A stretch of DNA of 64,000 nucleotides, from assembly GCA_036253495.1 (NCBI GenBank), contig GCA_036253495.1_4125.1. One strand, written 5' to 3'. Source of the DNA: a phage. This document shows positions 3,605 through 59,355 of this stretch, piece after piece. Numbering within the stretch: the first letter of the stretch is position 1; each line of letters opens with the position of its first letter. Below the pieces are notes generated by a model. It worked only from the letters and a program-made list of their open reading frames with translations, made no database searches and had not been told where the DNA came from. Position numbers and translations under genes: made by a program.

Positions 3605-4396
3605 ATGAAATTTGTTGTAACGTCAGACGTACACGGTGGCACTGATTACCTCCATAGTGGTGATTACAGTGATACAGTACTGATCATTGCAGGGGACTTT
3701 GATGAAGCTAAACGCAGTCGTTATCGTACTGGTATCGAATCCCTGTGCAAGCAGTTCAAGAATGTAGTACTGGTTCCTGGCAACCACGAGTACTACGGTT
3801 CAAACATTCACAAGACTAATAAAGTTCTGTCCGATATGCAAGATGAGATTCCAAATTTCATCTTTTTGCAAAACAAATTTGTATGGCTGGATGGTGTCCT
3901 GCTCGTTGGTAGTACTCTGTGGACAGACTTTGACAAAGGTAATTCCATGACGAAGTTTGATGCTCGTCAGAAGATGAACGATTACAAACATATTCGTCAT
4001 GGAACAACATCCGAGCCTTGGCGTAAGAAACTGACACCCGAAGATACTGAGTTCATGCATCACAAAGATAAACAATTTATCAAAAATTCAGTTGACACAG
4101 TACGCTTAATGCAGGATAATGATTTCAAGGTCATCGTGATTACCCATCACGCACCGAGTTTTCAAAGTGTTTCGCCAAAATATAAAAACGATTCACTGAA
4201 TGGTTGTTACTGTTCAGACATGGATCAGTACATTGAAGATTTGGGTGCTGATGTTTGGATTCATGGTCATGTTCATAGTAGCTTTGATTACCACATCGGT
4301 AAGACACGTATCATTTGTAATCCAAGAGGTTACGAATCTTATAGTGGAGCTTGTGAGAATTTCGATTACAATCCCAAATTGGTATTCGAAATCTAA
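3605..4396 (+). CDS. calcineurin-like metallophosphoesterase
   Basis: Motifs DVHGG, GDFDE, GNHEY, GHVH in canonical order; ATG at 3605 is 5 nt after GGAGG (track start 3599 is GTG). Confidence 0.75.
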   Translation: MKFVVTSDVHGGTDYLHSGDYSDTVLIIAGDFDEAKRSRYRTGIESLCKQFKNVVLVPGNHEYYGSNIHKTNKVLSDMQDEIPNFIFLQNKFVWLDGVLLVGSTLWTDFDKGNSMTKFDARQKMNDYKHIRHGTTSEPWRKKLTPEDTEFMHHKDKQFIKNSVDTVRLMQDNDFKVIVITHHAPSFQSVSPKYKNDSLNGCYCSDMDQYIEDLGADVWIHGHVHSSFDYHIGKTRIICNPRGYESYSGACENFDYNPKLVFEI

Positions 4397-4800: not shown

Positions 4801-5183
4801 TGAAACTTATTACTGTGTACACAATTGTATATAATAACGAAATCAAGTACGTGTTAAATGCAAACTTACACCACACTAGAGGTGAAACAAAGTTACAACA
4901 GAACAGTACAGAAATCTCTCACTACTGGCTGGATGATGATTCAGTTGAAGTGTATATTGATGGTCGTGCTGAATACTATGATGCAGTTTTCTTTGAAGAT
5001 TTAGATAAATCGAACGAATTCTTCATTTATGTCAGTACTGACCAATATTATACGCATTCTTTGTTTGACATTACCAACACTTCTGTGTATGATACAGGTA
5101 TGGTTAGGTTACTGAAGATAGACCCAACTCTGTACAACAAAGAAACAATTTACGGTTTACTAGATTTTACAAGAAAATTGTAG
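4800..5183 (+). CDS. hypothetical protein
   Basis: 127 aa ORF, start overlaps upstream stop (TGATG). Confidence 0.5.
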   Translation: MKLITVYTIVYNNEIKYVLNANLHHTRGETKLQQNSTEISHYWLDDDSVEVYIDGRAEYYDAVFFEDLDKSNEFFIYVSTDQYYTHSLFDITNTSVYDTGMVRLLKIDPTLYNKETIYGLLDFTRKL

Positions 5184-5243
5184 ACAAATACGAACACTGT
5201 GATATAATACTCACATCAATGAAACAATAGAGGAAAATATACA

Positions 5244-5939
5244 ATGACTCAACAATTTATGTTTGGTGGTTATGCGAATGGTGAAACAACTAACATTTCA
5301 ATTCCATATGTAGTTGAAAAAGTTAATGGCAACGAACGTACTTATGATCTAGCATCTCGTATGATGCAAGACCGTATCATTTTCCTTGATACTGATTTCA
5401 ACGACCAGATGGCACATATCATCAAGCAACAATTGGTGTGGTTGGATTCTCAAGGTTCTGAACCAATTACTCTTTATATTTCCTCGCCGGGTGGTAGTGT
5501 TCATGCAGGTTTGGGTATTTCTGATATTGCTAAATCTTGTGTATCACCAATCCGCACAGTAGTGATGGGTTATGCAGCATCAATGGGTTGCTACACACAA
5601 TCAGTAGTTGGTACTAAAGGTTATCGTCTTGGTGGTAAACGCTCGTACTTTATGTGTCACCAAGTAAGTTCTGGTACACAAGGTCTGATCACTGATCAGA
5701 AAATTGCACTAAAACACTCTGATGCATTGAACACATTGCTGACGAAAGAAATCGCTGAAGCTGTAGGTGTTTCTCATGAAAAACTACTAGAAGATGCGGA
5801 CCGCGATTTGTGGTTGAGTGCAGATGAAGCACTTGAGTATGGTGAACTTGGATTTATCGATGGTATTATCCTTGGTCCACGTAATGAAAAAGGTCAATAC
5901 CTAGTTAAACGTCGCGGTGGCGTGGAAGAGTGGGTATAA
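5244..5939 (+). CDS. clpP: ClpP-family serine protease
   Basis: ClpP signature ISSPGGSVHAGLGI, catalytic Ser in GYAASMG, His in FMCHQ, Asp in DADRD; extended -10 promoter-like TGaTATAAT upstream. Confidence 0.78.
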   Translation: MTQQFMFGGYANGETTNISIPYVVEKVNGNERTYDLASRMMQDRIIFLDTDFNDQMAHIIKQQLVWLDSQGSEPITLYISSPGGSVHAGLGISDIAKSCVSPIRTVVMGYAASMGCYTQSVVGTKGYRLGGKRSYFMCHQVSSGTQGLITDQKIALKHSDALNTLLTKEIAEAVGVSHEKLLEDADRDLWLSADEALEYGELGFIDGIILGPRNEKGQYLVKRRGGVEEWV

Positions 5940-6300: not shown

Positions 6301-6747
6301 ATGGCTAATGAACAACACAAAGAAGGTTATGACGCGTTTAAAAACAAAGTAGTTTTTAACAATGAACAGCTAAAATCACAGCACCCACTATTCCGTCAAG
6401 GCTATCGTGCTGCACAAGCTGACGCAATGAAGAAAAACAATGTAACCTTCCCAACTACATTGTTTGATATTCCTAAACGTCCTGAAGTGTTTAAGGCTGA
6501 TTGGACTGATATTATGGCAGCAACTAAACGACCACGTTTTGCAAAACTACATACCGACGAAGGTAAATGGCTGCTAATGGGTATCATGAAAGCTGTTGAA
6601 AAACGTGCACATACTATTGTCCGTTATCGTGATGTTGTTACTATGGTAGATGAAGCATTTGATATTGTACTTCAGTACGGCTACGATGAAGGTGTATTAA
6701 CTGTTGAAGATTGTCAACAATATAACTATACACCGACCGAAAAGTGA
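6301..6747 (+). CDS. hypothetical protein
   Basis: ATG at 6301 immediately after upstream stop; track ORF 6208 begins inside previous gene, so internal ATG preferred. Confidence 0.5.
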   Translation: MANEQHKEGYDAFKNKVVFNNEQLKSQHPLFRQGYRAAQADAMKKNNVTFPTTLFDIPKRPEVFKADWTDIMAATKRPRFAKLHTDEGKWLLMGIMKAVEKRAHTIVRYRDVVTMVDEAFDIVLQYGYDEGVLTVEDCQQYNYTPTEK

Positions 6748-8181: not shown

Positions 8182-8617
8182 GGAAAGTAAGTGTCTTTCC
8201 CAGAAAGTAGGTTGTGTTATTGTAAAGAATAACCGAGTATTGAGTACTGGATATAACGGTACACCATCAAAGCAACCTAACTGTTGTGATGTTAATAAAC
8301 ATCTCGTAAACAATGGTCAATTTCAAAATTGGATTGATGAAGATGCAAAACACTTACATCACGAGTGGAGCAACATTCATGAGATCCATGCGGAAATGAA
8401 TGCATTACTATATAGTTCACCACAAGAACGTCAGGGTGCAACACTTTACACCACACTCCAACCGTGCTATACTTGTTCTAAGTTAATCGCTGGTAGTGGT
8501 ATTTCTCGTGTAATTTACGAAAAATCGTATCCTCGCACTCCACCAGAAGCTATTAAAGTACTGGAAGATGCTGGGATTATTGTAAATTGTATCTATGATA
8601 ATGGACTCAATAAATGA
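8138..8617 (+). CDS. cd: dCMP deaminase
   Basis: Zinc-binding deaminase motifs HAEMNAL and PCYTCSKLI; N-terminus MKHTTWLKIASVVAEESKC resembles T4 Cd as recalled. Confidence 0.8.
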   Translation: MKHTTWLKIASVVAEESKCLSQKVGCVIVKNNRVLSTGYNGTPSKQPNCCDVNKHLVNNGQFQNWIDEDAKHLHHEWSNIHEIHAEMNALLYSSPQERQGATLYTTLQPCYTCSKLIAGSGISRVIYEKSYPRTPPEAIKVLEDAGIIVNCIYDNGLNK

Positions 8618-8874
8618 CAATGGTATATTTGTTTCTAGGTTGTATTGTTATATTTGTATTGTTTGCTATCTATTGTTTAGTTGATACTGATTATTCAATG
8701 CGTGGTAATAAGAATTATCAAGTACGTTTTTCCCCGCATAATAACAAGTACTACATTGTGAATGTTAGCCACACTACTGGTCGTGAAATGAAAGTAACTG
8801 GTAGATTTGGCTTTACAATTTACTATGATAACCAAATTGATGTTGATTATGTTGTTGAAAAGTTAAATAAATGA
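8614..8874 (+). CDS. small membrane protein
   Basis: 86 aa, N-terminal hydrophobic helix. Confidence 0.4.
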   Translation: MTMVYLFLGCIVIFVLFAIYCLVDTDYSMRGNKNYQVRFSPHNNKYYIVNVSHTTGREMKVTGRFGFTIYYDNQIDVDYVVEKLNK

Positions 8875-8875
8875 G

Positions 8876-8900
8876 AAAAGGAGCCTATGGCTCCTTTTTT
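8876..8900. terminator. bidirectional intrinsic terminator (GGAGCC-TATG-GCTCC, flanked by A-run and T-run)
   Basis: Perfect hairpin between convergent genes 8614-8874 (+) and 8902-9276 (-). Confidence 0.6.
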
Positions 8901-8901
8901 A

Positions 8902-9276
8902 TTATGCTTTTTTACGTAGGATGTATTGTCCATTATGTAATTTAATTTTGTGAATCATGTACATAGTGCAAAACCCTTCAATACCTGCTTCTTCATCTTT
9001 CAATTTAATGAAGAAAGTATTATCTCTTAGGCTTTCTACAAGGCTTTCATCTGAATCTTCGAAATTCATGATATATGAATCTTTATTTCTATACACCATC
9101 TGAACATATTCATAAACCTTACCGCTTTCATCGATTAGATCATAAGTATGTGCTGAACGTTGTTTTAAAATATATAGTTTACCAAGAATAGCTGCTCCAT
9201 TAATTTTAGCACCAGTAATTTCGATACCATTAATAGAAAAAGGAAGTCTTCCGGTTAATGCAATTGGTTTACCCAT
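8902..9276 (-). CDS. paralog A of inverted cassette (shared N-terminal domain only)
   Basis: Shares LPF-x-I-GG-I, AKI-GxxL, LY-x-QRS-x-YDLI, IKL-NG motifs with the two neighbours; start set at MGKPIALTG by paralog alignment (track ORF extends to 9318). Confidence 0.5.
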   Translation of the reverse strand: MGKPIALTGRLPFSINGIEITGAKINGAAILGKLYILKQRSAHTYDLIDESGKVYEYVQMVYRNKDSYIMNFEDSDESLVESLRDNTFFIKLKDEEAGIEGFCTMYMIHKIKLHNGQYILRKKA

Positions 9277-9336
9277 TATTATTATACTTCTCCAAGTAAA
9301 GTGCATGATAATTTTCATGCACTATATTATTAAAAA

Positions 9337-11763
9337 TTAAGCACTGATTGTTACAGTTGCAGTATCAGTTTTATTGCCATTCGCAGTAGTCACTGTAATG
9401 ACTACAGTACCTTCTTCTAGAGCAGTTACTAATCCATCATCACTAATAGATACTTTAGTAGGTTCATCTGCACTATAAGTTACTGATTTGTTAGTTGCGT
9501 TAGCTGGAAGAACTTCTGGAACTAGTTGAACTGTTTTAGTACCTGATAGTGAAAGATCAGTGGCTTTAGGTGTTAAACCAACGCTGGATACTGGTACTGG
9601 AATATTAACAGTTACAGCACATTTTGCAGTTTTTGCACCATCAGTAGTTTTTACAGTGATATCAGCAGTACCGTTTGCAACAGCAGTGATTAAACCACTT
9701 GCACTAACAGTTGCGACCCCAGCAGCAGAAGTACTATAAGTTACTGCTTTGTTAGTTGCATTAGCTGGTAGTACAGTTGGTGTTAGTTGTTGAGTTGCAC
9801 CAACAGATGTTAAAGTTGCTGTTGTTGGAGAAACAGAAACACTAGCTACAGGAACTGGGATTGACACAGTAATGACACCTTGACCTGTTTTACCACTTCC
9901 ATCAGCGGCAGTTGCGATAATGTTTGCAGTACCGTTAGTTAACGCAGTTACAACACCAGTACTAGCATCAACTTTCGCTACAGCAGGTGCACTAGAAGAC
10001 CATGTTACAGCTTTATTAGTTGCGTTAGCTGGAAGAACTTCAGCAGCCATTGCTTGAGTTGCGTTAACAGCAGTCAATGTTTTAGTTGCTGGTGTAACAT
10101 TAATAGTTGTTACTGGAACTGGAATTGCTACAGTTACTGCACAAACCGCAGTTTTTGCACCATCAGCGGTTGTTACGGTGATGTTAGCAGTGCCATTTGC
10201 TACAGCAGTTATCAATCCTGAAGTGCTAACAGTTGCTACACCCGCATTAGAAGTACTATAAGTTACTGCTTTATTGGTTGCATTAGTTGGTGCAACCGAT
10301 GGTGTTAGTTGTTGTGTTGCACCAACAGATCTTAAAGTTGCTGTTGTTGGAGAAACAGAAACACCAGTTACTGGTACTGGAATATTAACAGTTACAGCAC
10401 AAACTTTACTAAAGCCACCATCAGCAGTAGTAGCCGTGATATTAGCAGTGCCATTCGCTACCGCAGTGATTAAACCACTTGTACTAACGGTTGCAACACC
10501 AGCAGCAGAAGTTGCGTATGTTACTGCTTTGTTACGAGCATTAGCTGGTAGAACAGTTGCAGTTAATTGCTGTGTTGCACCAACAGAAGTTAATGAAGCG
10601 GTTGCAGGTGTTAGGTTAATACCAGTTACTGGGATCGTCACATCAATAATTGATTGTGCGGTTTTTTCACCATCAATAGTTGTTACGGTAATAGTGGCAG
10701 TACCATTATTAACAGAAGTTACTAAACCGTCATCATCAACTTCTGCTACTGTAGGTGCAGAAGATTCATAACGAACTTCCTGATTTGATGCAGTTCTTGG
10801 TAGTACCGTTGCTGTTAATGGTTCATTTGCACCAATAGTAGTGAATGTATATGTTTCAGGTGTTAACGTAACACCAGTTACTGCTGTTTGAACTTTAATA
10901 GAAGAAGTATCAGTAAATGAACCATCTTCAGATGTTGCAGTAATAGTAACATCACCATTGGATACACCTGTTACCAACCCAGAATCTTTATCAACTGTTG
11001 CAACGGATGGAGCAGATGAAGTCCATATAACTTTCTTGTCTGTTGCTGAGGCCGGAGTAACTTCAGCTAACAATTGTTGAGTTGACCCAACGTTTACAGT
11101 TGCAGATTTAGGAGAAACGGTAACACCAGTAACACCAGTACTGACAACGATAGAACACACATCTGTGAAATCACCATCGTGAGTTGTTACGGTTACATCA
11201 GCATTGCCATTTGCAAGTGCAGTTGCTAGACCTGTTTGAGCATCAACTTCAACGATTGTAGGAGCAGATGAAGAGTAGGTTACTGCCTTGTCTTTTGCAT
11301 TAGATGGAACTACTTGGGCTGATAGTTGTTTTGTTGCACCAACTTTAAGAGATGCATCTTTGGGTGTAATTACAACACCAGTTACGGGGATATCAGCATT
11401 AACATAATCGCGTTTTACGATACGACCATTATTTAATTTAATAACACGACCCATATAAAGCATAGTATACCCCATGCTAATACCATCATCAACATAGATC
11501 ATGAATGAATTGTCTTGAACCATATTAATTGCGTCTGCTGGTTCAACAGAATTTGGAATGTCGATACCACGAGTATCATACCAACGCATGGAAACTTTGT
11601 AATAGATATCACCATTATCATTGATGAGATCATACACGTTACCGGAACGTTGACGGTTAATATATAAAGTTTCCGTTAACACCTTACCATCGATTTTAGC
11701 GACAGAAACTTTAATACCACCAATACCAAAAGGCAATTTACCTTCACTAGATATTGCTTTCAT
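9337..11763 (-). CDS. Ig-like (Big_2-type) repeat protein with paralog N-terminal domain
   Basis: 808 aa; N-terminal ~130 aa paralogous domain followed by at least 9 tandem ~88-aa repeats (VTGV..P....L.VG.T.QL...V.P.NAT.K.V.Y.SS...VATV...GL.TAV..G.A.IT..T.DG). Confidence 0.7.
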   Translation of the reverse strand: MKAISSEGKLPFGIGGIKVSVAKIDGKVLTETLYINRQRSGNVYDLINDNGDIYYKVSMRWYDTRGIDIPNSVEPADAINMVQDNSFMIYVDDGISMGYTMLYMGRVIKLNNGRIVKRDYVNADIPVTGVVITPKDASLKVGATKQLSAQVVPSNAKDKAVTYSSSAPTIVEVDAQTGLATALANGNADVTVTTHDGDFTDVCSIVVSTGVTGVTVSPKSATVNVGSTQQLLAEVTPASATDKKVIWTSSAPSVATVDKDSGLVTGVSNGDVTITATSEDGSFTDTSSIKVQTAVTGVTLTPETYTFTTIGANEPLTATVLPRTASNQEVRYESSAPTVAEVDDDGLVTSVNNGTATITVTTIDGEKTAQSIIDVTIPVTGINLTPATASLTSVGATQQLTATVLPANARNKAVTYATSAAGVATVSTSGLITAVANGTANITATTADGGFSKVCAVTVNIPVPVTGVSVSPTTATLRSVGATQQLTPSVAPTNATNKAVTYSTSNAGVATVSTSGLITAVANGTANITVTTADGAKTAVCAVTVAIPVPVTTINVTPATKTLTAVNATQAMAAEVLPANATNKAVTWSSSAPAVAKVDASTGVVTALTNGTANIIATAADGSGKTGQGVITVSIPVPVASVSVSPTTATLTSVGATQQLTPTVLPANATNKAVTYSTSAAGVATVSASGLITAVANGTADITVKTTDGAKTAKCAVTVNIPVPVSSVGLTPKATDLSLSGTKTVQLVPEVLPANATNKSVTYSADEPTKVSISDDGLVTALEEGTVVITVTTANGNKTDTATVTISA
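9400..10780 (-). repeat. tandem ~261-264 bp DNA repeats encoding Ig-like domains
   Basis: Near-identical segments such as GTTACTGCTTTGTTAGTTGCATTAGCTGGTAG recur at about 9478, 9738, 10003, 10261, 10520. Confidence 0.65.
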
Positions 11764-11829
11764 ATACTTTCCTTTATAAATTGTATTGTAGTGTTATATT
11801 ATTTATATTATACCAAAAGTATTTTAGGA

Positions 11830-11857
11830 TTAAAAAAAGGAGTCCGAAGACTCCTTA
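11830..11857 (-). terminator. intrinsic terminator (minus strand) downstream of 11868-12383
   Basis: Hairpin AAGGAGTC-CGAA-GACTCCTT followed on the minus strand by a U-run. Confidence 0.55.
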
Positions 11858-11867
11858 AAATATAAAG

Positions 11868-12383
11868 TTATTGGAAACGAGCATACGGTGGGAATCTGGT
11901 TTGGTCAGGCCAATCTTTCGGAGAGAAGTAAGCAGTGAATTGCATTTTATCATTTGAATAAAGAACAAAATCATCTGGCTTTATTATAACTTTAGACAAC
12001 GAATTTGGCTCCACGTTCGTTCTTCTGAAAATTATTTCACCATTATGTAATTTTATTTTATTACTTTGATATTGAATACCAAAACCATACTTATTATTAA
12101 TAGCATCAGCTTCTTTTATGCAAAATGTATTATTTGCTAAAGATTTAGCAATTTCAGCATCGTCATCATCATACAACAATGTTGATTTATCTTTATTTCT
12201 ACCTGTGATTTTTATATCTTTGTAAATCTTGAAATTTTCAGATATTAAATCATATGAATCGAATGTTCTTTGTTTTATAACATACAATTCTTTAACAAAT
12301 ACTTGCCCTTCTATCTTTGCAGCAGTAACCTGCAATCCACCTATAACAAATGGAAATTGATCTAAGCCAGCTATTGGTTTCAT
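11868..12383 (-). CDS. paralog C of inverted cassette
   Basis: 171 aa; shares N-terminal domain with 8902-9276 and 9337-11763; SD AAGGAGATG on minus strand. Confidence 0.55.
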   Translation of the reverse strand: MKPIAGLDQFPFVIGGLQVTAAKIEGQVFVKELYVIKQRTFDSYDLISENFKIYKDIKITGRNKDKSTLLYDDDDAEIAKSLANNTFCIKEADAINNKYGFGIQYQSNKIKLHNGEIIFRRTNVEPNSLSKVIIKPDDFVLYSNDKMQFTAYFSPKDWPDQTRFPPYARFQ

Positions 12384-12581
12384 AACATCTCCTTACCTTA
12401 AAAATGGGATTGTAAACTGCCTCCCAATATGATACCATAGTTCAAATGGTCAATTGGTAAATCAATGAACTTAACAAAAACACTTGATACTACAGTCATA
12501 ATTGTTCAGTTTTGCACTTGACATAATTGATCAATTATTGTACTATTATTTATGTTCCTTAACTCAAATCCGAGGTAATCA

Positions 12582-13187
12582 ATGAAACGAATCTTGAAAG
12601 AGATTGTACAAACCGTTGTTTTAATCGCTGCATTAAACTTTCCGGCAGCGGCAGAAGTTTCAAAAAAATCATCTGTTTTTCTATTAAATGAACATGTTGT
12701 GTCAATTGATGGTGAACTAAATGATGAAACTGTACAAGAAGTGAAGAAGTTGTGGAAAGAAACAAGATTTAAAATTTTAACAATTACATCACCTGGTGGA
12801 GATTTTGATGCAGGATTAGATTTGGGATTGTTTGTGGCTGCTAAAAAGTTAACTGTTTATGTCCCAAAGCAATGTAATTCGTCTTGTAGTCTGGTTTTTT
12901 TCTCTGCATCATCTGAACGTAGGGATATGAGTGATACCGCAGTGATGGGTTTACATAACATCTCACTAGTATCTACGAATGGTGCAGATCCAGATACGAC
13001 ATTCGTTTCAGTTAGACAGTTGATGGAGTTTACACATCAAGTCTCAACTAAAGTTGGGTATCTTTTTACACTGTACGCACATAACGGTATCCCCGCTGAA
13101 ACACTCATTGATATCAGTACTAAACATGGTGAGGATATCGTTGTCTTACGAAGATCAGATCTCGTTAAATGGGGAATCATTCAATAA
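12582..13187 (+). CDS. secreted ClpP/S49-like protein (putative protease, catalytic residues uncertain)
   Basis: N-terminal signal-peptide-like segment; ITSPGGDFDAGLDLGLF resembles the ClpP/SppA SPGG motif. Confidence 0.45.
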   Translation: MKRILKEIVQTVVLIAALNFPAAAEVSKKSSVFLLNEHVVSIDGELNDETVQEVKKLWKETRFKILTITSPGGDFDAGLDLGLFVAAKKLTVYVPKQCNSSCSLVFFSASSERRDMSDTAVMGLHNISLVSTNGADPDTTFVSVRQLMEFTHQVSTKVGYLFTLYAHNGIPAETLIDISTKHGEDIVVLRRSDLVKWGIIQ

Positions 13188-27505: not shown

Positions 27506-27513
27506 TATAAATA
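27506..27513 (+). promoter_or_regulatory. late-promoter-like TATAAATA box
   Basis: Exact TATAAATA about 30 nt upstream of tail-fibre gene start 27545. Confidence 0.5.
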
Positions 27514-27544: not shown

Positions 27545-30244
27545 ATGGCAAAGAAAATATATGGTGGCATTGATGTTACACATAATGTAACAGTCAAAGG
27601 TAAGAGAAGTGTTCAGAGCATCAATGATAACGTATTTGATGAAAATGGCAATCTCACAATAGATGCATATACACAAGATGATATGCTGGAAATGGTTGGT
27701 ATGTTACCCATTTCTCGTTATGGTACACAAAACTATCTACCTGCTGGTGTCAATGGTACAACAGTTGGTTCTTCAGAAAATGCTAGTTCCAGAAATACAA
27801 AATTATTTTTGGAAGATGATAACACTTTAGTAATGTTACGTCCGGGTACTAATGGAAGTTCACAGGGGATTTATTATAGTTATATGACCCAGGCGGTTGG
27901 TACAACAAATACAAGTCGTATGGTTAATACTACTCGTGCATATAAACCAAATTATTTTGGTGCTGGGTATGCAGTTTATTTGTATCCAAGCAGTGATGAT
28001 ATTACTTGTGGTTTGGTGAGAACTGAAAATTCTGATGGTACATATATTGATAGAGTTTTTGTTTCAGTCAATAATGGTACTATGAATGATACAATGCACA
28101 CTGGTATTATTCTATCAGACCATACAGCCGTACAACCTTTTGGTGCAATACAATTTGTTATTCGTGCTGAAGATGGTTCATTATACTTTTTCAGTTTAGA
28201 TACACCAAGCAATACTCTTAAAATATCCGTTACTAAAGTTACTTTTAGTCCAAGTAATAACCCAGGTGGTGGTACTTATAGTGTTACTAGAATTACTGGT
28301 TGGGCCACAAGAACTTTTTATAATGCAATGGTATATGATGACAATATTGTTCCAACTATGAAAATAAATTCAACAAATACCAATGATAATCCATACGTTT
28401 TAATTCCAAGTGGTATTATTGGGTTTGGTGTTTATATGACAGATCCAGATTTATATGTTGCACAGAAATCTGGTACATCCGAATTCAGATTTAGATTATG
28501 TGGTGATATGTGGATGACAAATGGACGATATGACACACGCCCACAACATGGTTTTAGTATGACTTTTGATGTTGTGACAAAACAATGTAAATTAGATAAT
28601 ATGTTAACGACTACACCAGTTGCTGTTAATGACACGGGTTCAAGTATGAATGTAACGGGTCAATGCATAACAAAAGATCCATTTTATCTTCACGCGGGTC
28701 TGCGTAATATTTTTAGTAATTATTGCTATGTACCATCAACTGGTGATGCATTTTGTTCATTCTCACCAAACCTCGCAGAAGCATTGAACTTATCATATGC
28801 GAAATATCCACCACAGTCATTGTTTAATTTAATGAATGTTAGAAGTGTATCAGCAACTAATTTTATTAATGGTGTAGTATCACCAAGATTTGGTTCAGCA
28901 GTTGGTTCATACCAAGTAGGTGTAGAGTTATTACCAAATAACAGTACTAAACAATATTCAAGACGTTCTGGTGATGGTCGTTTTTATCCATCCTATGCTG
29001 TACATAAAGCTACACCGAACTTCACATTTAAGTCTCTAGACTATGGTACTGTTCCTGGTTATGAACCAACACCAGACCGAGCGTTTATAACTACACCAGA
29101 ATCTAGAATTTTTATAAGTTCAATTTCTGGATCAACGGTAACGACTAATGGTGGTGTTTTGGTGGCTGATAATAGAACATCAACTCCTATTAGTTTTGAT
29201 TATAAAGGTAATGTACTGAATAATGGTACAATCAGTATGTCTCAAGATATAATGAATGCTATTCGAAATTCCGAATTTGCTAAAGTTGCTAGTTCATGGA
29301 ATATATCACCAGAATCAATAAAAACATTATCTGTATTTGTTCCACAACAAACTGATATTCCTGTTTTTGGTGTTCTTGCAGCATCTACTACAGCCCGTGG
29401 TCTATATATTCGAGTTGTTGAATTGAATGTCAATACAAGAACTGGTGATATTACAACGTGGTCGTTCAAACGTTTAGTACATGAAAGTGTTCAAGCTGGG
29501 GATTACAAAACAGATACCGCATATCATCTTGATAGTGGAAGTATTGGTATTACTATATATGATGCGGGTTCTTTCTACTTCATTGGTGGTGGTATTCCTG
29601 GTTTCTTTAATACAGTTGGTAATACAAACTCTCCATTTTTCCGTGCTACAGTGGATAAAGCGACAGCCCAATTTAATAATTTCCATATAGCTGGTGGACG
29701 TCCGATCTATGCATTAGATGGTCAACCATTCGCTTTACCTAACATTGGGTTTGGTATTCTTCAAAGTATAGATAATAATAACAAAACAATTTTTAGAACA
29801 TATGGTACAACATTAGCGGATTATAATGCATGGACTGATAAAGGAAATCCAGTTATATGTCTTGTTTCCCAAGATGTTGCTCAAGGTTTTATTATATACT
29901 TCACCGAAGAGACACCAGTACTGATATCCGGTAAACACTATACATTACCAATATCAAATATAGATTTAACAACTGTGAAAGCAAATCCTGCCAATACTAC
30001 ATTTTATGTGTATATTAAATTAGTACAGGGTATTGCAAACTATCATATATCAACAACTGAATTAGCTGAAACTCATTCAATATTCTGGATTGGTACAGTG
30101 AAAACTGATAATTTACAAATAACCGAAATTAATATAGAAAAACGTTCTCGTTTAGACCTGTTTGGTTCATCATTCAACGCTGCCGGAAGTTCCTTCCCAG
30201 TAAGTTCTGGGTTCCCTTCAAGTTCTGGTAATGTGAATTGGTAA
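27545..30244 (+). CDS. tail fibre-like protein (899 aa)
   Basis: Large late ORF; shares N-terminal motif (D.M...LP.SR.G.Q.YLP...NGT) with 30856-33597 and C-terminal ~130-aa module with both neighbours. Confidence 0.55.
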   Translation: MAKKIYGGIDVTHNVTVKGKRSVQSINDNVFDENGNLTIDAYTQDDMLEMVGMLPISRYGTQNYLPAGVNGTTVGSSENASSRNTKLFLEDDNTLVMLRPGTNGSSQGIYYSYMTQAVGTTNTSRMVNTTRAYKPNYFGAGYAVYLYPSSDDITCGLVRTENSDGTYIDRVFVSVNNGTMNDTMHTGIILSDHTAVQPFGAIQFVIRAEDGSLYFFSLDTPSNTLKISVTKVTFSPSNNPGGGTYSVTRITGWATRTFYNAMVYDDNIVPTMKINSTNTNDNPYVLIPSGIIGFGVYMTDPDLYVAQKSGTSEFRFRLCGDMWMTNGRYDTRPQHGFSMTFDVVTKQCKLDNMLTTTPVAVNDTGSSMNVTGQCITKDPFYLHAGLRNIFSNYCYVPSTGDAFCSFSPNLAEALNLSYAKYPPQSLFNLMNVRSVSATNFINGVVSPRFGSAVGSYQVGVELLPNNSTKQYSRRSGDGRFYPSYAVHKATPNFTFKSLDYGTVPGYEPTPDRAFITTPESRIFISSISGSTVTTNGGVLVADNRTSTPISFDYKGNVLNNGTISMSQDIMNAIRNSEFAKVASSWNISPESIKTLSVFVPQQTDIPVFGVLAASTTARGLYIRVVELNVNTRTGDITTWSFKRLVHESVQAGDYKTDTAYHLDSGSIGITIYDAGSFYFIGGGIPGFFNTVGNTNSPFFRATVDKATAQFNNFHIAGGRPIYALDGQPFALPNIGFGILQSIDNNNKTIFRTYGTTLADYNAWTDKGNPVICLVSQDVAQGFIIYFTEETPVLISGKHYTLPISNIDLTTVKANPANTTFYVYIKLVQGIANYHISTTELAETHSIFWIGTVKTDNLQITEINIEKRSRLDLFGSSFNAAGSSFPVSSGFPSSSGNVNW

Positions 30245-30254
30245 TGGAGATAAT

Positions 30255-30845
30255 ATGGCTTATAAATTTAGATCTGATGTGGAAGCGTATGCTTCCGTTA
30301 AATCACAAGGAAAAAATACTGGGACCACGATAACTGATCGTTCTGGTAATGTGTATCAAGCTGATGCTAATGGGAATGTTGATGTACCACTCATGAGTAC
30401 AGATGATGTGAATTACATTACCAGTTCCTTTCCGTTATCACAATTTGGTTCACTTTACAGTACTGAACCATTGGGTATTTCTGCTGCTGGTTTCAATTTA
30501 ACTTTCAGCAAAGAATTACCGTTATTCATGGCGGGAGCGGCGTATACCCTCCCAGCTAAAACAATAACGGACCCAGGAGTTACTGGAACTAATATTGAAA
30601 CACATTATGTATATGTTATATTAGATGTTGGGGTAGCTGACTACCTCATTTCTAAAACTCAACGCCCTGAAAGTAGTGTTAATATGTACATAGGACAACT
30701 GACAGTTTTCCCAGATGGCATTACAGGGGTCAGTATAAATAAAGTGTCAAGATTTGACGACTTCAGAGTAAGTGCTACAAAAATTGGTTCAGCTATCCCT
30801 ATCAGTTCTGGTACACCAGATGTGAATAGTGGGACAGAATGGTAA
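30255..30845 (+). CDS. tail fibre-associated protein sharing C-terminal module
   Basis: 196 aa; C-terminal KVSRF...IPISSGTPDVNSGTEW parallels termini of the flanking large proteins. Confidence 0.5.
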   Translation: MAYKFRSDVEAYASVKSQGKNTGTTITDRSGNVYQADANGNVDVPLMSTDDVNYITSSFPLSQFGSLYSTEPLGISAAGFNLTFSKELPLFMAGAAYTLPAKTITDPGVTGTNIETHYVYVILDVGVADYLISKTQRPESSVNMYIGQLTVFPDGITGVSINKVSRFDDFRVSATKIGSAIPISSGTPDVNSGTEW

Positions 30846-30855
30846 AGGAATATAT

Positions 30856-33597
30856 ATGGCTTCGAGACGAATTATAGGAAACGCAGAAATACTAGGGAAT
30901 TTGAAAATTAATGGAAAGTATGCATTACGTTCCTTTAATGGATTCCCTGCTGATTCTGCTGGTAATATCACTTACCAATATTATGACAAAGCGGAAGTGG
31001 ATCAAATGTTTGATATGCTTCCTGTTTCAAGGGTAGGTGATCAAGATTACCTACCGATGAGTATTAACGGTACATTTGAAGGTGCTTCTTCCTTTTCATT
31101 TGCAAAAATAATGCAACCTTGTATCATTGAAAATGATGGTACTGGTGTAATTTTACGTGCAGGTACAAATGGAAGTTCTTATGGTTTCTATTATGCTTAT
31201 ATAAAAAATATAAGAGATATAGAAACATTAACTCAAGATAATATAATTACAACCAACACGATGTATAGACCTTCTGTGCTACCAAGTACTGATTACATTT
31301 ATGAATTTTATGGGTCAAATGCATATGAATTACTATTTTGGGAATCGACTGATAGAGCATCATACTACCTTACATTAACAAATGAAACATTAAATGAATC
31401 TGCTCATAAACACTGTAGAATTCCAAAAACAGCAATAACAAATAAACCAATCTATGCACACATCGTAAATGATTCAGTTTATATATGGTGTATGGATTCA
31501 AGTGTATTGAGTAGTGTTCGCGGGTGTGCATTTATCATATACACAGTACCTTTAACTGCATTTAATACTGGTTCAGTTTCGACAGTAACACAGATTAGTG
31601 GTTATTCAGGAAGAACTATAAGAAATGTAACATACACTGCATCTAATAATATTCGTGTTTATGATAGTTATTCAGTGTTGGGTTCAGGTGGTGATGCACT
31701 AATAGCATATGATAATGGTGTTTCCAGAATAGATTATTGGGAAAATAACGCATTTAATACCCAAGCAGTTCTTAGCCCTGATGGTACAAAAATAAGAGTA
31801 GCGATATATCCAGGGTTTCGTGTCTTTACCGCAACAAAAACATCTAGTGTATATGCACTTGGTATCAGCTTTACATATGATATCAGTACTAAAACAATGA
31901 CACTTGACGGTTCTGAACGTGGTCCAATCAGAGTATCAGCTAATACATCAACTGGTAGTATAACAGTGAGTAACCCGTTTTCAATCAATATGGAAAACTT
32001 TACAGGGTTTTATGATGGTGCACTTGGTAACTATGGTTCAATCTGTCAAACTTCTGATGGTTTTGTTTTCACTACCAAAGCAAGATGGTCATCCATGCCG
32101 ACCTATGCAGTACAAACATACAAAGTTTCTGGTACACCTTATGATAGTTGGGTTGCTAAAACACGTACTGGTAGTAATTTAAAACGTGTAGAAGTAATGC
32201 CAGTTTATGGCTCCCCTGTCGGTGAAAACTTAATAGGTGTTCGTTTCGTAGATAAACGTAAGATACTTGTTGCATGTTCTGGTACTGCTGATGGAATTTC
32301 TTATGGTTATGATAGTACAGTTTTTACTGAAATAGGTGAGAATCCAACTTATAGTTATAAAAACTTGGAACAAAATACCACAATGAATGGTTTTGCACCA
32401 TCAGGTAATAGACACTATTTAAGTACTGATTACAAATATGCAGGTATGGTAACATTGGTTGATGCCAATGGAAATGTCAGCACTTATGGATCTTCTTTAA
32501 TAGAAGGTATCGATAAACCAGCTTATGGAAAATTCGACCCTGTTACAATGGACTTTAACAATGATAGATATGAAATTTCAGGAACTACATTATCAGGTAT
32601 AGGTTATAATGCCGTTGCTAAAGCTGGATTGACTGGAATAACTGAACATAAAACTGTTTTTTATTATGTACCTGATACTACATATTCTAAATCTATTGCA
32701 GTCACTTCTGCACTAAACGGTACTACCAACGTGTGTTATATTATTTTTTCCGAAATATCATGTAGTGCACTGGGTACAAGTGGTACTATAATTTTACGTG
32801 GTATTAGTGTTGATACAGCAAGATATACATCAATCACGAATACATTCCAAATTTCACCAAATGAAATGATCAAACGTTGGGCTGGTATGACTGTTGCTAA
32901 GTTTAGTGGTTTTAACTACTTAGGTGTGAACATTTTATATGGCATTGATACCCCAGGTTGGACTCGTTATCCTAACATGATTGCTAAAGTGAAAAATGGT
33001 ATTATTTCAAGTCAACGATATATGGAAACAACTTATATTTCAAACGCACAATTTGATATAGGTACAATTCCAGGGATTGGGTTTGGATATTACCAAATGA
33101 ACAAAAACGATTATCAAACTAAATCAGTTTTTGCTGTATGTGGTACTACTGAAGCAGATATGGATAAACTAATATCTGGTAATGAAACGATATCACAGTA
33201 CTTAGTTGTTGCTTCACAGGATGTGGCACAAGGGTTCAACGTGTACTTTTCACAAGAAGTACCAGTTTTCTTGGGTGGAAAGTTTGCAAAGATACCACCG
33301 ACTATGATAGACTTATCTACCATAAGTACTACACCAGATAATTCAACATTCTACATATATGCGGTTATGGATAGAGGTACATCTACAGCTTCGTATCAGA
33401 TATCACTATATCAATTATCAGAAACTATGACATCAACCTACATTGGTAAGATAGTAACTGATGCTAATGGTATTGCATCAATCGAGTCTGAAAAAGTGTC
33501 CAGATTCTTGCTATACCGCCCAAGTACCTACAATCGTGGTTCTGCTATCCCAGCTAGTTCTGGGTTACCATCACAATCTGGTACTCGTTGGAGTTAA
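30856..33597 (+). CDS. tail fibre-like protein (about 913 aa)
   Basis: ATG at 30856 after SD AAGGAA (track start 30829 lies inside previous gene); shared N- and C-terminal modules with 27545-30244. Confidence 0.55.
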   Translation: MASRRIIGNAEILGNLKINGKYALRSFNGFPADSAGNITYQYYDKAEVDQMFDMLPVSRVGDQDYLPMSINGTFEGASSFSFAKIMQPCIIENDGTGVILRAGTNGSSYGFYYAYIKNIRDIETLTQDNIITTNTMYRPSVLPSTDYIYEFYGSNAYELLFWESTDRASYYLTLTNETLNESAHKHCRIPKTAITNKPIYAHIVNDSVYIWCMDSSVLSSVRGCAFIIYTVPLTAFNTGSVSTVTQISGYSGRTIRNVTYTASNNIRVYDSYSVLGSGGDALIAYDNGVSRIDYWENNAFNTQAVLSPDGTKIRVAIYPGFRVFTATKTSSVYALGISFTYDISTKTMTLDGSERGPIRVSANTSTGSITVSNPFSINMENFTGFYDGALGNYGSICQTSDGFVFTTKARWSSMPTYAVQTYKVSGTPYDSWVAKTRTGSNLKRVEVMPVYGSPVGENLIGVRFVDKRKILVACSGTADGISYGYDSTVFTEIGENPTYSYKNLEQNTTMNGFAPSGNRHYLSTDYKYAGMVTLVDANGNVSTYGSSLIEGIDKPAYGKFDPVTMDFNNDRYEISGTTLSGIGYNAVAKAGLTGITEHKTVFYYVPDTTYSKSIAVTSALNGTTNVCYIIFSEISCSALGTSGTIILRGISVDTARYTSITNTFQISPNEMIKRWAGMTVAKFSGFNYLGVNILYGIDTPGWTRYPNMIAKVKNGIISSQRYMETTYISNAQFDIGTIPGIGFGYYQMNKNDYQTKSVFAVCGTTEADMDKLISGNETISQYLVVASQDVAQGFNVYFSQEVPVFLGGKFAKIPPTMIDLSTISTTPDNSTFYIYAVMDRGTSTASYQISLYQLSETMTSTYIGKIVTDANGIASIESEKVSRFLLYRPSTYNRGSAIPASSGLPSQSGTRWS

Positions 33598-39479: not shown

Positions 39480-40194
39480 ACAATACTTTATATTGTGCTA
39501 TAATTATATTGTAATGGAAAATGTCAGTGGACGTTTTAACAACGGACAAGAAGAACCTACTTCTCTTGAAAATGTAAAGGATAGATGAGCCTTCCCACTG
39601 AGGCGATGAGCAAAAGAAACCCGTTAGTACCATCCAAGTGCATTCATACAAACGCGAAATAAGACACGGATCACACGGCGACACGGCTCAATAAAGAACT
39701 CCGATAAGCATACAGAGAGTTCCTCGATAGATGTATAAGGATCGCACCTTACCAGATTTGCTAAGGGAGTTTTACTTAAAACAAGCGGTCAATTTTTCTA
39801 CGGGAAAGTTGCACCCAAAATTTGAGTAAAACGAGTACTGAATTGATCGAATAGTTCCAGTACTTTAGTGCAGGGGATGAAAATACCTGCGACCGTTGCA
39901 TATGACTGCGATAGAGAGAAACAGAGCAACCCGCTTTCGTTCTCCAAAAATTGGACACCCTTGATCCGTCCAAAATATGGAGAAATTCGCAATTCGATAA
40001 ATTCCGATGCCATCAGCGTCAAAATCAAGAACCTTAATTGGTTCTTTTTTAATATCATTCCCCTGCGGGGGGATGAAAATGTCCTCAACAAATCCCGTCA
40101 ATCTTTAAAAGTACAATACAATATTAATTAATATGAATGAGTGAGTTATCGTAGATAACGAAACGAATTCTTGAGTTACGAGAGAACGAAGTGA
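39480..40194. other. ORF-poor region with internal repeats and hairpins (candidate ncRNA or regulatory region)
   Basis: No convincing ORF; only mutually overlapping short ORFs on both strands; GGGGATGAAAAT twice, ACACGG three times, GATGAGC twice; terminator-like hairpin at 40023-40050. Confidence 0.3.
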
Positions 40195-54891: not shown

Positions 54892-55518
54892 ATGGAAAGA
54901 AAAATCGTAGCCATCAATGGCTCAATAGGAAGTGGTAAAGATACATACGCTAAAACATTCATCGATAATGGATATACCCGTATGTCGTTTGCAAAGAACC
55001 TGAAAGATTCAGTTGCAGCTATTTTTGGCTGGGACAGGGAAATGCTTGAAGGAACTACTAAAGAAGGTCGTGCTATTCGTGAACAACCGGATCAGTACTG
55101 GTGTAATAAATTAGGACGTGATGATGTTTCACCACGTTGGGTACTGCAAAATTACGGTACTAATGTAGTTCGTCGTTATTTGCATAATGACATTTGGGTA
55201 TTCAGTTTAGAACGTTCTATGATGGAAATAGAAGGTAACATTATCATTACTGATTGTCGTTTTCCAAATGAATTGAAAATGATTCGTGAAAATAACGGTA
55301 TCATCATTGAAGTTCAACGTAATTTACCATTCTGGTATGGTCTAGCAGCATCATACAATAAAGGTGATATCCAAATGAAACCAGTTGAACTGGAATCAGT
55401 ACATGAATCTGAATGGGCATGGATTGGTATTAACAACCCACATTATATTATCAAGAATAATGGAACTATAAAAGACCTAGAAAACAAAGCACTGGATATT
55501 ATTTATACGAAAAACTGA
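54892..55518 (+). CDS. deoxynucleoside monophosphate kinase (T4 gp1-like)
   Basis: P-loop IVAINGSIGSGKDT and following YTRMSFAKNLKDSVAAIFGW resemble T4 gp1 as recalled. Confidence 0.6.
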   Translation: MERKIVAINGSIGSGKDTYAKTFIDNGYTRMSFAKNLKDSVAAIFGWDREMLEGTTKEGRAIREQPDQYWCNKLGRDDVSPRWVLQNYGTNVVRRYLHNDIWVFSLERSMMEIEGNIIITDCRFPNELKMIRENNGIIIEVQRNLPFWYGLAASYNKGDIQMKPVELESVHESEWAWIGINNPHYIIKNNGTIKDLENKALDIIYTKN

Positions 55519-58626: not shown

Positions 58627-58634
58627 TATAAATA
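58627..58634 (+). promoter_or_regulatory. late-promoter-like TATAAATA box
   Basis: Exact TATAAATA about 38 nt upstream of tube-like gene start 58672. Confidence 0.5.
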
Positions 58635-58671: not shown

Positions 58672-59355
58672 ATGGCTACTATGCTAGATCGATATGGCGT
58701 TCCGCTTGCTGGTGGTGGTCGTATTTCAATGAAACAACCAAAAGCAAAATATAAATTCCGTGTAATTTTCTTTGGTTTTGGTGCCAATGATGATGGCAAC
58801 ATGATTACACTAGATACAAACACTGTTGGTGCAGTATCTGTATCGCATGAAAACGTAACTGTTCATAGTTATAACAGTTCCGCACACTATAAAGGCAAAT
58901 ATACTTGGGATGCGATTGAAGTTGCTTTCCGTGATTCAGTTGGTAATGCTTCAGCAAAAGCACTTTACAACCAAATGCGTAAAGAATTCAACTACTATAG
59001 TCAAGAATCTCGTATGACTGATTCCCAGTTTAAATTTGAAATGTGGATTCAAGAACTAGATGGTTCTAACAGCGAAAATGCAACAAACCTTTTTGAAGGT
59101 ACTCTAAGTACTTGGGTTTGTCAGGGTTGCTTTATTGAATCCAGCAACTTTGGTGATTGGGATTATTCTTCAAGCGAAGCACAAGTTATTACAATGAGTG
59201 TTCAACCAGATGGTTGTGCTAAGTTGGGTCCAAACGGTGAAGCATTCGGTGATGAAGTTACTGGTTTCGGTAATCCAAGTACTGCATCTTCTATTAGTGG
59301 TGCACAAACCAACATTAGTAGTACTACACTACCTGATACAAACTTCTTTGATTAA
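58672..59355 (+). CDS. tail tube-like protein (paralog 1)
   Basis: Follows sheath gene; N-terminus YGVPLAGGGRISMKQPKAKYKFRVIFFGFG paralogous to next gene; tube assignment by position. Confidence 0.45.
   Translation: MATMLDRYGVPLAGGGRISMKQPKAKYKFRVIFFGFGANDDGNMITLDTNTVGAVSVSHENVTVHSYNSSAHYKGKYTWDAIEVAFRDSVGNASAKALYNQMRKEFNYYSQESRMTDSQFKFEMWIQELDGSNSENATNLFEGTLSTWVCQGCFIESSNFGDWDYSSSEAQVITMSVQPDGCAKLGPNGEAFGDEVTGFGNPSTASSISGAQTNISSTTLPDTNFFD

What the first reader, a model, noticed from the sequence alone, without database searches (positions are those of the whole stretch)
8876..12560. Inverted three-gene cassette of paralogs; the central one carries at least 9 near-identical Ig-like repeats
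This is the only minus-strand block in the window and it is bounded by hairpin terminators at 8876-8900 and 11830-11857. Its three proteins share a roughly 125-aa N-terminal domain (LPF-x-IGG-I-V, AKI-G, LY-x-x-QRS-x-YDLI, IKL-NG-x-I) that I do not recognise. The 808-aa member adds a long array of Big_2-like domains encoded by about 261-264 bp DNA repeats that are nearly identical in places (for example 9738 and 10261). Such repeats are recombination-prone, so domain number could vary between isolates. The arrangement resembles Hoc-like decoration or adhesin modules, but the shared domain is N-terminal and triplicated, which is unusual.
Basis: partly seen in the sequence, partly recalled or inferred. 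Interest (0 to 1): 0.6.

Follow-up and report, generated by a model that had tools for sequence, protein, structure and literature searches.

The report
Jumbo-phage virion decoration protein cassette
Three neighbouring genes of a giant E. coli phage share a small, uncharacterised N-terminal domain that most likely fastens them to the virus particle; one carries eight Ig-like domains, probably a sticky surface fibre, whose domain number changes between close relatives.

Summary
Three minus-strand genes (124/138, 808 and 171 aa) share a ~120-aa N-terminal domain (BLASTP E 1e-22 to 9e-34). The large one carries 8 Big_2 domains, not 9 or more, and the DNA units are 53-83% identical, not near-identical.

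The window is an Asteriusvirus jumbo coliphage closest to phage A4. The locus is conserved in every RaK2-like jumbo phage examined: one or more opposite-strand genes next to dCMP deaminase. Orthologues were detected in purified virions by mass spectrometry (phAPEC6 gp347, 75% coverage; CBB_112).

The shared domain has no Pfam family and no solved relative. It is predicted as two small beta-barrels. In 98 database clusters it sits at the extreme N-terminus, followed by 0 to many Ig-like domains.

Best reading: a virion anchor plus an Ig display fibre, working like T5 pb10 or T4 Hoc but with an unrelated anchor. It appears to be transcribed late.

Ig number varies from 6 to 9 among four relatives. 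A4 differs from the window by one exact 258-bp unit. The two small paralogues are decaying in relatives.

There is no sign of a diversity-generating retroelement. The RefSeq label 'major tail protein' is not supported. Overall this is a modestly interesting new variant of a known kind. Where the protein sits on the virion is not shown.

The parts
8874..8900 (.). Bidirectional intrinsic terminator. It ends the plus-strand 86-aa gene (8614..8874) and the minus-strand cassette.
   Evidence: 10-12 bp stem with 5 G-C pairs and T-runs on both strands. Sequence.
8902..9276 (-). Paralogue 1: a 124-aa anchor-only protein. The mechanical ORF extends to 9318, but its upstream ATGs lie inside a hairpin.
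   Evidence: It is 100% identical to A4_463 (124 aa, 'putative structural protein'). PHROG 10468 and 33171 'virion structural protein', E 3e-18 and 3e-16.
9300..9323 (-). Intergenic stem-loop between the 808-aa and 124-aa genes. It has no proper T-run, so it is probably not a full terminator.
9337..11763 (-). Paralogue 2: an 808-aa protein made of the N-terminal anchor plus 8 Big_2 Ig-like domains.
   Evidence: Pfam Big_2 E 4e-134 with 8 stretches. PHROG 215 'structural protein with Ig domain' and PHROG 33171 on residues 1-114.
11386..11763 (-). Anchor domain of the 808-aa protein (aa 1-126).
   Evidence: AlphaFold2 model: pLDDT 82.7, pTM 0.77; two five-stranded beta units joined by a helix. 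No solved relative.
9340..11385 (-). Array of eight Big_2 units: Ig1 11385-11134, Ig2 11133-10882, Ig3 10881-10630, Ig4 10629-10372, Ig5 10371-10114, Ig6 10113-9850, Ig7 9849-9592, Ig8 9591-9340.
   Evidence: Tandem Repeats Finder sees only the central 3.9 copies, at 67% matches.
10147..10404 (-). A 258-bp segment (exactly one Ig unit) that is present here and absent from phage A4. The junction lies at the 8-nt shared GTTTGTGC.
11800..11807 (-). TATAAATA, a T4-type late-promoter-like box 37 nt upstream of the 808-aa start codon.
   Evidence: only 5 copies in the window against 11 expected. Others precede the tail tube gene and two 900-aa genes. A similar late motif was reported for CBB and GAP32.
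11837..11856 (-). Intrinsic terminator after the 171-aa gene.
   Evidence: 8-bp stem followed by TTTTTTT. Sequence.
11868..12383 (-). Paralogue 3: a 171-aa protein made of the anchor plus a ~50-aa remnant of the first half of a Big_2 domain.
   Evidence: AlphaFold2: the anchor is confident, but residues 122-171 have pLDDT below 50 and no strands. PHROG 33171 E 5e-20.
12384..12581 (.). Divergent intergenic region between the cassette and the plus-strand ClpP-like protease gene (12582..13187). It holds the ribosome-binding site of the 171-aa gene and weak sigma-70-like boxes.

Best explanation
The cassette encodes accessory virion-surface (decoration) proteins of an Asteriusvirus jumbo coliphage.

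- Anchor. The shared ~120-aa N-terminal domain is an all-beta module: two small SH3/Tudor-like barrels preceded by a conserved arm that is predicted flexible. I infer that it docks the protein onto a repeated site of the assembled particle. The most likely site is the capsid lattice, for example the unassigned density at hexon centres seen in 121Q and phAPEC6.
- Display. Whatever follows the anchor is displayed outward. In the 808-aa protein that is a chain of eight Big_2 Ig-like domains joined by short Pro-rich linkers. If extended it would be roughly 30 nm long. It is expected to bind weakly to surface glycans on host cells or mucus, as proposed for Hoc and other phage Ig domains.
- The small paralogues. 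The 124-aa paralogue is a bare anchor. The 171-aa paralogue is an anchor with a decayed, probably unfolded, Ig stub.
- Expression. The 808-aa and 124-aa genes appear to be transcribed late from a T4-type TATAAATA box. The 171-aa gene is its own unit with its own terminator.
- Evolution. The Ig array grows and shrinks by unequal recombination between units. The small paralogues are being lost in relatives.

Shown: paralogy, domain content, synteny, virion presence of orthologues, unit-number variation, and decay of the paralogues.
Inferred: anchor function, site on the virion, adhesion, and timing of expression.
For: - Identity of the phage. The closest records are Asteriusvirus A4, UE-S1 and ph0011.
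- Synteny. An opposite-strand gene carrying this N-domain lies next to dCMP deaminase in PBECO4, 121Q, phAPEC6, RaK2, CBB, BF, GAP32, Munch and EJP2.
- Virion presence. phAPEC6 gp347 is the 125-aa anchor-only orthologue. It gave 8 unique peptides and 75.2% coverage, the highest in that virion proteome and equal to the major capsid protein. CBB_112 (anchor plus 1 Ig) was found in the CBB virion with 4 peptides.
- Free sites on the particle. 121Q and phAPEC6 capsids carry unassigned decoration densities, including one at each hexon centre with fibres.
- Family architecture. An HMM search of 1.84 billion representative proteins finds only 98 clusters. In nearly all of them the domain is at residues 1 to about 125, and total length runs from 102 to 1859 aa. 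The C-terminal parts are Big_2 x1-8, HYDIN/ASH-type Ig, or Invasin_D3/Big_1. This is a fixed anchor with an exchangeable display.
- Fold. The model is confident (pLDDT 82.7). The invariant N-terminal arm (M1, K2, I4, A5, P11, F12, G16) has low confidence in two independent models, as expected for a segment that orders on binding.
- Late promoter. TATAAATA lies 37 nt upstream of the 808-aa gene and also precedes the tail tube gene.
- Ig variation. There are 6, 7, 8 and 9 units in four relatives, and the window differs from A4 by exactly one 258-bp unit.
- No signal peptide is visible in the three N-termini.
Against: - No experiment locates any member of this family on the particle.
- The 4.1 A capsid map of the RaK2 relative phiKp24 was interpreted as built from the major capsid protein alone, with the hexon-centre density assigned to capsid-protein C-terminal loops. 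That argues against a capsid site, at least in that genus, or means the protein is flexible or sub-stoichiometric there.
- RefSeq and the CBB authors file the orthologue under 'tail'.
- phAPEC6 and 121Q show fibres yet their orthologue has no Ig domains, so the anchor family is not simply 'the fibre'.
- The anchor fold has no solved relative, so its binding role rests on architecture and analogy only.
- Glycan binding by these Big_2 domains is untested.
Confidence: 0.65

Rival explanations
1. The proteins decorate the tail rather than the capsid. They would sit on the sheath rings, collar or neck and form or anchor the 'hairy' whiskers described for CBB, phAPEC6 and 121Q.
For: The CBB authors grouped CBB_112 with tail proteins. 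phAPEC6 has fibres at three annular positions on the sheath, plus a collar and distal decoration protein, all unassigned. The phiKp24 capsid was modelled without any decoration protein.
Against: The 'tail' label comes from Big_2 similarity to siphophage tail-tube Ig appendages, not from localisation. CBB whiskers are about 119 nm long while CBB_112 has one Ig domain. The very high coverage of 14-kDa gp347 fits hundreds of copies better than a few rings. The locus lies about 45 kb from the sheath and tube genes at 55.6-59.4 kb.
Confidence: 0.22
2. The 808-aa protein is the major tail (tube) protein, as several RefSeq records name its orthologues.
For: RefSeq product names for RaK2, K64-1, CBB and GAP32. 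There are many PHROG 'major tail protein' hits.
Against: All those PHROG hits fall on the Big_2 units, not on the N-domain. The window has its own tail tube gene at 58672..59355 (phrog_4542, E 2e-83) beside the sheath gene. The N-domain model matches no tube fold. Orthologues of 125 aa lack the Ig part altogether.
Confidence: 0.02
3. The Ig array is a hypervariable receptor-binding region diversified by a diversity-generating retroelement or a similar targeted mutator.
For: The sequence is repetitive and varies between relatives.
Against: No copy of any cassette segment exists elsewhere in the 64-kb window. Mismatches between the closest units involve all bases equally (15 of 45 at A in either unit) and fall mostly at third codon positions (26 of 45), which is ordinary divergence under purifying selection. 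The window and A4 differ by only 12 substitutions in 2169 nt plus one whole-unit indel. Big_2 is not the usual retroelement target fold (my own knowledge).
Confidence: 0.02
4. Only the 808-aa gene is functional. The two small paralogues are non-functional relics on their way to deletion, so the 'cassette' has no joint function.
For: The 171-aa gene carries an in-frame stop in A4. UE-S1 retains only fragments of both small genes, ph0011 only a fragment of the 124-aa gene, and a Logan contig lacks the 171-aa gene. The C-terminal stub of the 171-aa protein is predicted unfolded.
Against: In the window both small genes are intact and have ribosome-binding sites. The 171-aa gene has its own terminator. 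The 124-aa protein is 100% conserved with A4. Anchor-only proteins are the normal, virion-incorporated form in about 20 other Asteriusvirus genomes.
Confidence: 0.3

Closest known systems
T5 pb10 (capsid decoration protein that binds hexamer centres)
   Same: The domain order is the same: an N-terminal particle-binding domain followed by a solvent-exposed C-terminal Ig-like domain. Both are accessory virion proteins.
T4 Hoc
   Same: A chain of Ig-like domains displayed from the virion, dispensable for assembly, and proposed to adhere weakly to glycans or mucus (for the architecture; the function is from my own knowledge of Fraser 2006 and Barr 2013).
   Different: Hoc has its Ig domains at the N-terminus and its capsid-binding part at the C-terminus, the reverse order. 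There is no sequence or fold similarity in the anchor. Hoc is a single gene, not a paralogue cluster.
RaK2-like phage 'structural protein with Ig domain' (PHROG 33171, 10468 and 215; RaK2 gp496/F403_gp039, CBB_112, GAP32_111, 121Q_471, phAPEC6 gp347)
   Same: This is the same protein family at the same syntenic locus, with the same opposite-strand orientation. Members were detected in virions.
   Different: Those phages have one gene with 0-2 Ig domains. Here there are three paralogues, one with 8 Ig domains. The large gene's anchor is the most divergent of all (22-37% identity to other genera).
Siphophage major tail proteins with C-terminal Big_2 appendages (for example lambda gpV-type)
   Same: They display a Big_2 domain on a virion protein (PHROG hits).
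   Different: The core domain there is the tail-tube fold. Here the core is an unrelated small anchor, and a separate tube gene exists.

Membership tests
Big_2 (PF02368) Ig-like repeat proteins | Matches to the Pfam Big_2 model above the gathering score | tested here: met
   437 bits against a cut-off of 22.8, with 8 stretches, in the 808-aa protein. The 171-aa protein keeps only about half a unit.
RaK2-like virion structural protein family (PHROG 33171 / 10468) | Sequence match of the N-terminal domain to the family profiles | tested here: met
   All three proteins match, with E between 5e-20 and 4e-10 over residues 1 to about 120.
RaK2-like virion structural protein family (PHROG 33171 / 10468) | Conserved genomic position: opposite strand, next to dCMP deaminase and a ClpP-like protease or NAD-salvage genes | tested here: met
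RaK2-like virion structural protein family (PHROG 33171 / 10468) | Presence in purified virions | not testable with these tools
   Shown for the orthologues phAPEC6 gp347 and CBB_112 only, not for this phage.
T4 Hoc family | N-terminal Ig-like domains followed by a C-terminal capsid-binding domain | tested here: not met
   The order is reversed.
T4 Hoc family | Sequence or fold similarity of the capsid-binding part | tested here: not met
T5 pb10 family | N-terminal capsid-binding domain plus C-terminal Ig-like domain | tested here: met
   The domain order is the same.
T5 pb10 family | Alpha-helical fold of the capsid-binding domain | tested here: not met
   The model has eleven strands and a single helix. 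pb10 is absent from the listed fold-search matches.
T5 pb10 family | Binding at the centre of capsid hexamers | not testable with these tools
   There are only unassigned hexon-centre densities in 121Q and phAPEC6.
Phage major tail (tube) protein | Tail-tube fold or family match in the non-Ig part | tested here: not met
Diversity-generating retroelement target | A nearby reverse transcriptase and a template repeat with adenine-specific differences from the variable region | tested here: not met
   There is no second copy in the window and no adenine bias. The rest of the ~350-kb genome could not be examined.

The most novel reading that the evidence does not exclude
The three paralogous anchors would compete for the same repeated site on the capsid, or co-assemble at it. 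The phage would then set the density and length of its surface fibres by the ratio of bare anchors (124 aa, 171 aa) to the long 8-Ig form. The all-beta double-barrel anchor would be a new class of capsid-binding module, specific to giant T=27/28 capsids. Gain and loss of paralogues and Ig units would be the evolutionary means of adjusting that surface coat.
Probability: 0.2. Interest if true: 0.55.

Novelty: new variant of a known kind. Interest (0 to 1): 0.35.

Why it matters
Ig-bearing decoration proteins are thought to help phages hold on to mucus and cell surfaces, and they are widely used as display scaffolds.

This family supplies a compact anchor domain that has not been structurally characterised. 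It is used across the RaK2-like jumbo phages examined and is paired with anything from zero to many Ig-like domains. It is a good candidate for one of the unassigned capsid densities reported in 121Q and phAPEC6.

The window and its relatives also give a clean natural series: 0, 1, 2, 6, 7, 8 and 9 Ig units, and one, two or three paralogues. That series could be used to test whether fibre length and density affect adsorption, host range or retention in the gut.

In itself it is an incremental finding, not a new kind of system.

Tried and rejected
- Pfam and NCBIfam on the N-domain gave nothing meaningful. The Peptidase_S24 hit (E 0.002) and the DUF1425 hit (E 0.055) are below their cut-offs and appear in one member only.
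- PDB sequence searches with two profiles hit only the Ig part or nothing at all.
- BFVD returned only the same phage family, plus weak hits to Atu_ph07 and uncultured phages.
- The retroelement idea was rejected.
- The 'major tail protein' label was rejected.
- The first homologue search with a single sequence found only 2 proteins because of the tool's word index. A profile of ten phage orthologues was needed.
- The IMG/VR scan for close relatives of the large gene found none.
- One Logan contig carrying a relative ends inside the Ig array, so it gives no unit count.
- The UE-S1 and Sharanji genome papers do not mention the gene.
- Oligomer or capsid-complex modelling was not possible with the tools.
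Full report
**What is in the sequence**

Between 8.9 and 12.4 kb the window carries three ORFs on the minus strand. Every other convincing gene of the 64-kb window is on the plus strand.
- 8902..9318: 138 aa by the mechanical ORF rule. The two upstream ATGs lie inside a stem-loop. The start at 9276 gives the 124-aa protein annotated in phage A4.
- 9337..11763: 808 aa.
- 11868..12383: 171 aa.

The three products share an N-terminal domain of about 120 residues. Identity is 36-42%. BLASTP E-values are 9e-34, 1e-23 and 4e-22.

The 808-aa protein then has eight Big_2 domains (Pfam E 4e-134, 8 stretches). The units are 84-88 aa long.

The 171-aa protein continues for about 50 residues that align with only the first half of a Big_2 unit. 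AlphaFold2 does not fold that tail: pLDDT is below 50 and no strands are predicted.

**Signals around the genes**
- A bidirectional terminator closes the cassette at 8874-8900.
- A second terminator at 11837-11856 separates the 171-aa gene from the 808-aa gene.
- The octamer TATAAATA lies 37 nt upstream of the 808-aa start codon. It occurs only five times in the window, against 11 expected by chance.
- Other copies precede the tail tube gene and two ~900-aa genes.
- A T4-like late-promoter motif of this type has been proposed for the related phages CBB and GAP32.

- There are eight Ig units, not nine or more.
- The units are not near-identical. Unit-to-unit DNA identity is 53-83%; the best pair is Ig5/Ig7 at 83% DNA and 85% protein identity. 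The longest exact shared run is 33 nt.
- Tandem Repeats Finder sees only the central 3.9 copies, at 67% matches.
- The terminator near 11840 is internal to the cassette, not a boundary.

**Origin and synteny**

The window is an Asteriusvirus, a ~350-kb jumbo myovirus of E. coli in the RaK2-like group. Its closest record is phage A4.

A tblastn search with the N-domain finds it in 58 phage records. All are RaK2-like jumbo phages of Escherichia, Klebsiella, Salmonella, Erwinia, Yersinia, Pectobacterium, Serratia, Cronobacter and Xanthomonas.

In every locus inspected the gene lies on the opposite strand to its neighbours. It sits beside dCMP deaminase and a ClpP-like protease or NAD-salvage genes.

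Its length differs widely:

| Phage(s) | Length | Content |
|---|---|---|
| PBECO4, 121Q, phAPEC6 | 125 aa | anchor only |
| RaK2, CBB, Munch | 212-224 aa | anchor + one Ig |
| BF, GAP32 | 301-303 aa | anchor + two Ig |
| UE-S1 | 633 aa | anchor + 6 Ig |
| A4 | 722 aa | anchor + 7 Ig |
| window | 808 aa | anchor + 8 Ig |
| ph0011 | 890 aa | anchor + 9 Ig |

**Experimental evidence from relatives**
- phAPEC6 gp347 is the 125-aa orthologue. It was found in purified virions with 8 unique peptides and 75.2% coverage. That is the highest coverage in the table and equal to the major capsid protein.
- CBB_112 was found in CBB virions with 4 peptides and 24% coverage.
- Low-resolution maps of 121Q and phAPEC6 show decoration densities that nobody has assigned to a gene. 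One sits at the centre of every hexon and carries a fibre.
- Against a capsid site, the 4.1 A map of phiKp24 was interpreted as major capsid protein only.

**The shared domain**
- It has no Pfam or NCBIfam family and no sequence relative in the PDB.
- An AlphaFold2 model built from 25 family members is confident: pLDDT 82.7, pTM 0.77.
- The model shows two five-stranded beta units joined by one helix.
- A second model, of the 171-aa paralogue, gives the same element order.
- Among predicted viral structures, only the same phage family and a few uncharacterised phage proteins match.
- The first 16 residues are among the most conserved of the family but have low model confidence in both predictions. 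That pattern suits a segment that becomes ordered on a partner.

**Family-wide architecture**

A profile search of 1.84 billion representative proteins finds just 98 clusters. In nearly all of them the domain occupies residues 1 to about 125, and total length runs from 102 to 1859 aa.

The C-terminal parts sampled were Big_2 arrays, HYDIN/ASH-type Ig domains, or Invasin_D3/Big_1 domains.

So the family has a fixed N-terminal module with an exchangeable, extendable Ig-like display. This is the strongest comparative argument that the N-domain is an anchor.

**Dynamics of the Ig array**

Across 2169 aligned nucleotides the window and A4 genes differ by 12 substitutions. They also differ by one in-frame 258-bp indel that removes exactly one unit. 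Its junction lies on an 8-nt shared GTTTGTGC at the equivalent ends of Ig4 and Ig5.

Unit-by-unit comparison gives this picture:
- A4 lacks Ig5.
- UE-S1 lacks Ig5 and Ig7.
- ph0011 has extra units.

Changes therefore concentrate in the more similar central units.

Differences between the closest units are not biased to adenines and fall mainly at third codon positions. No copy of any cassette segment exists elsewhere in the window. A diversity-generating retroelement is therefore not supported.

**Dynamics of the paralogues**

The three anchors are as far from one another (32-41%) as from orthologues in other genera. The 171-aa protein is closest to RaK2 gp039, at 50%. The cluster is therefore old or was assembled by exchange; it is not a recent duplication.

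It is also being eroded (unless noted):
- In A4 the 171-aa gene has an in-frame stop and a 4-codon deletion.
- UE-S1 keeps only fragments of the 124-aa gene (residues 82-122 at 83% identity) and of the 171-aa gene.
- ph0011 keeps only a fragment of the 124-aa gene.
- 121Q has a 30-residue remnant of a second copy.
- EJP2 has two intact copies flanking the protease gene.
- A metagenomic contig lacks the 171-aa gene.

The window holds the most complete version seen.

**Interpretation**

The best-supported reading is an accessory virion-surface protein family that works like T5 pb10 or T4 Hoc: an anchor on the particle and Ig-like domains projecting into the medium.

The order 'anchor first, Ig second' is the pb10 order, so it is not unusual. 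The anchor fold, however, is unrelated to either model.

I favour a capsid site, at about even odds. Two things point that way: the abundance implied by the phAPEC6 proteome, and the free hexon-centre densities. A tail or collar site remains a serious rival.

The RefSeq name 'major tail protein' comes from Ig-domain similarity and is not supported. The window has its own tube gene, and the anchor has no tube fold.

Whether the two small paralogues act together with the large one is open. They could compete for sites or tune fibre density, or they could simply be decaying.

**Verdict**

It is less exotic than described. I rate it a new variant of a known kind, of moderate interest. Its main value is the uncharacterised anchor domain and the natural series of Ig lengths.

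Noticed in passing
window 39497-40080 (+): Candidate large structured non-coding RNA in a ~700-nt gap with no convincing ORF.
- A perfect extended -10 box (TGcTATAAT, 39496-39504) is followed about 540 nt later by a hairpin plus T-run (40028-40050). A second conserved GC hairpin follows.
- The stretch is 100% identical in A4 and about 78% identical in other Asteriusvirus genomes.
- Blocks are conserved at 73-77% DNA identity in unannotated gaps of CBB, Erwinia pEa_SNUABM_44 and Salmonella SE_PL, with different neighbouring genes and 2-3 places per genome.
- A five-sequence alignment has long invariant blocks. 17 of 83 predicted pairs show compensatory changes, including the terminator stem.
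- Consensus folding energy is -63.9 kcal/mol against -13.0 +/- 3.7 for column-shuffled alignments.
- Rfam has no match and no tRNA is present. I found no paper describing it.
- It may deserve its own investigation and could be more novel than the assigned finding.
   Followed up: partly
window 11800-11807(-), 27506-27513(+), 30734-30741(+), 58627-58634(+), 55500-55507(-): TATAAATA, the T4 late-promoter octamer, is under-represented: 5 copies against 11 expected. Four of the five lie shortly upstream of likely late genes: the 808-aa Ig protein, two ~900-aa paralogues, and the tail tube gene.
   Followed up: partly
window 27545..30244 and 30829..33597 (+): Two tandem ~900-aa paralogues, both in phrog_3573 (unknown function, E about 1e-200). 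Each is preceded by a TATAAATA box. This is another duplicated, probably late, gene pair.
   Followed up: no
L001 (phage A4) 6021-6524; L002 (UE-S1) 4114-4318 and 6390-6473; L003 (ph0011) 4867-5013; L005 (121Q) 3873-3971: Pseudogene remnants of the small anchor paralogues in relatives. A4 annotates its interrupted 171-aa gene as two ORFs (A4_466 and A4_465). 121Q_472 (43 aa) is a relic of a second copy.
   Followed up: yes
L017 (Logan ERR11566739 contig, 28,312 nt), locus 5001-5641: A metagenomic relative of the large gene. The contig ends inside the Ig array and the N-domain is split into two called genes. This is probably an assembly break or error at the repeats. This relative has no 171-aa paralogue upstream.
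   Followed up: no
window 9277-9323 (-): The mechanical 138-aa ORF begins with ATGs that lie inside a 9-bp stem-loop (9300-9323) between the 808-aa and 124-aa genes. The hairpin lacks a T-run. It may modulate read-through or translation of the downstream anchor-only gene.
   Followed up: no
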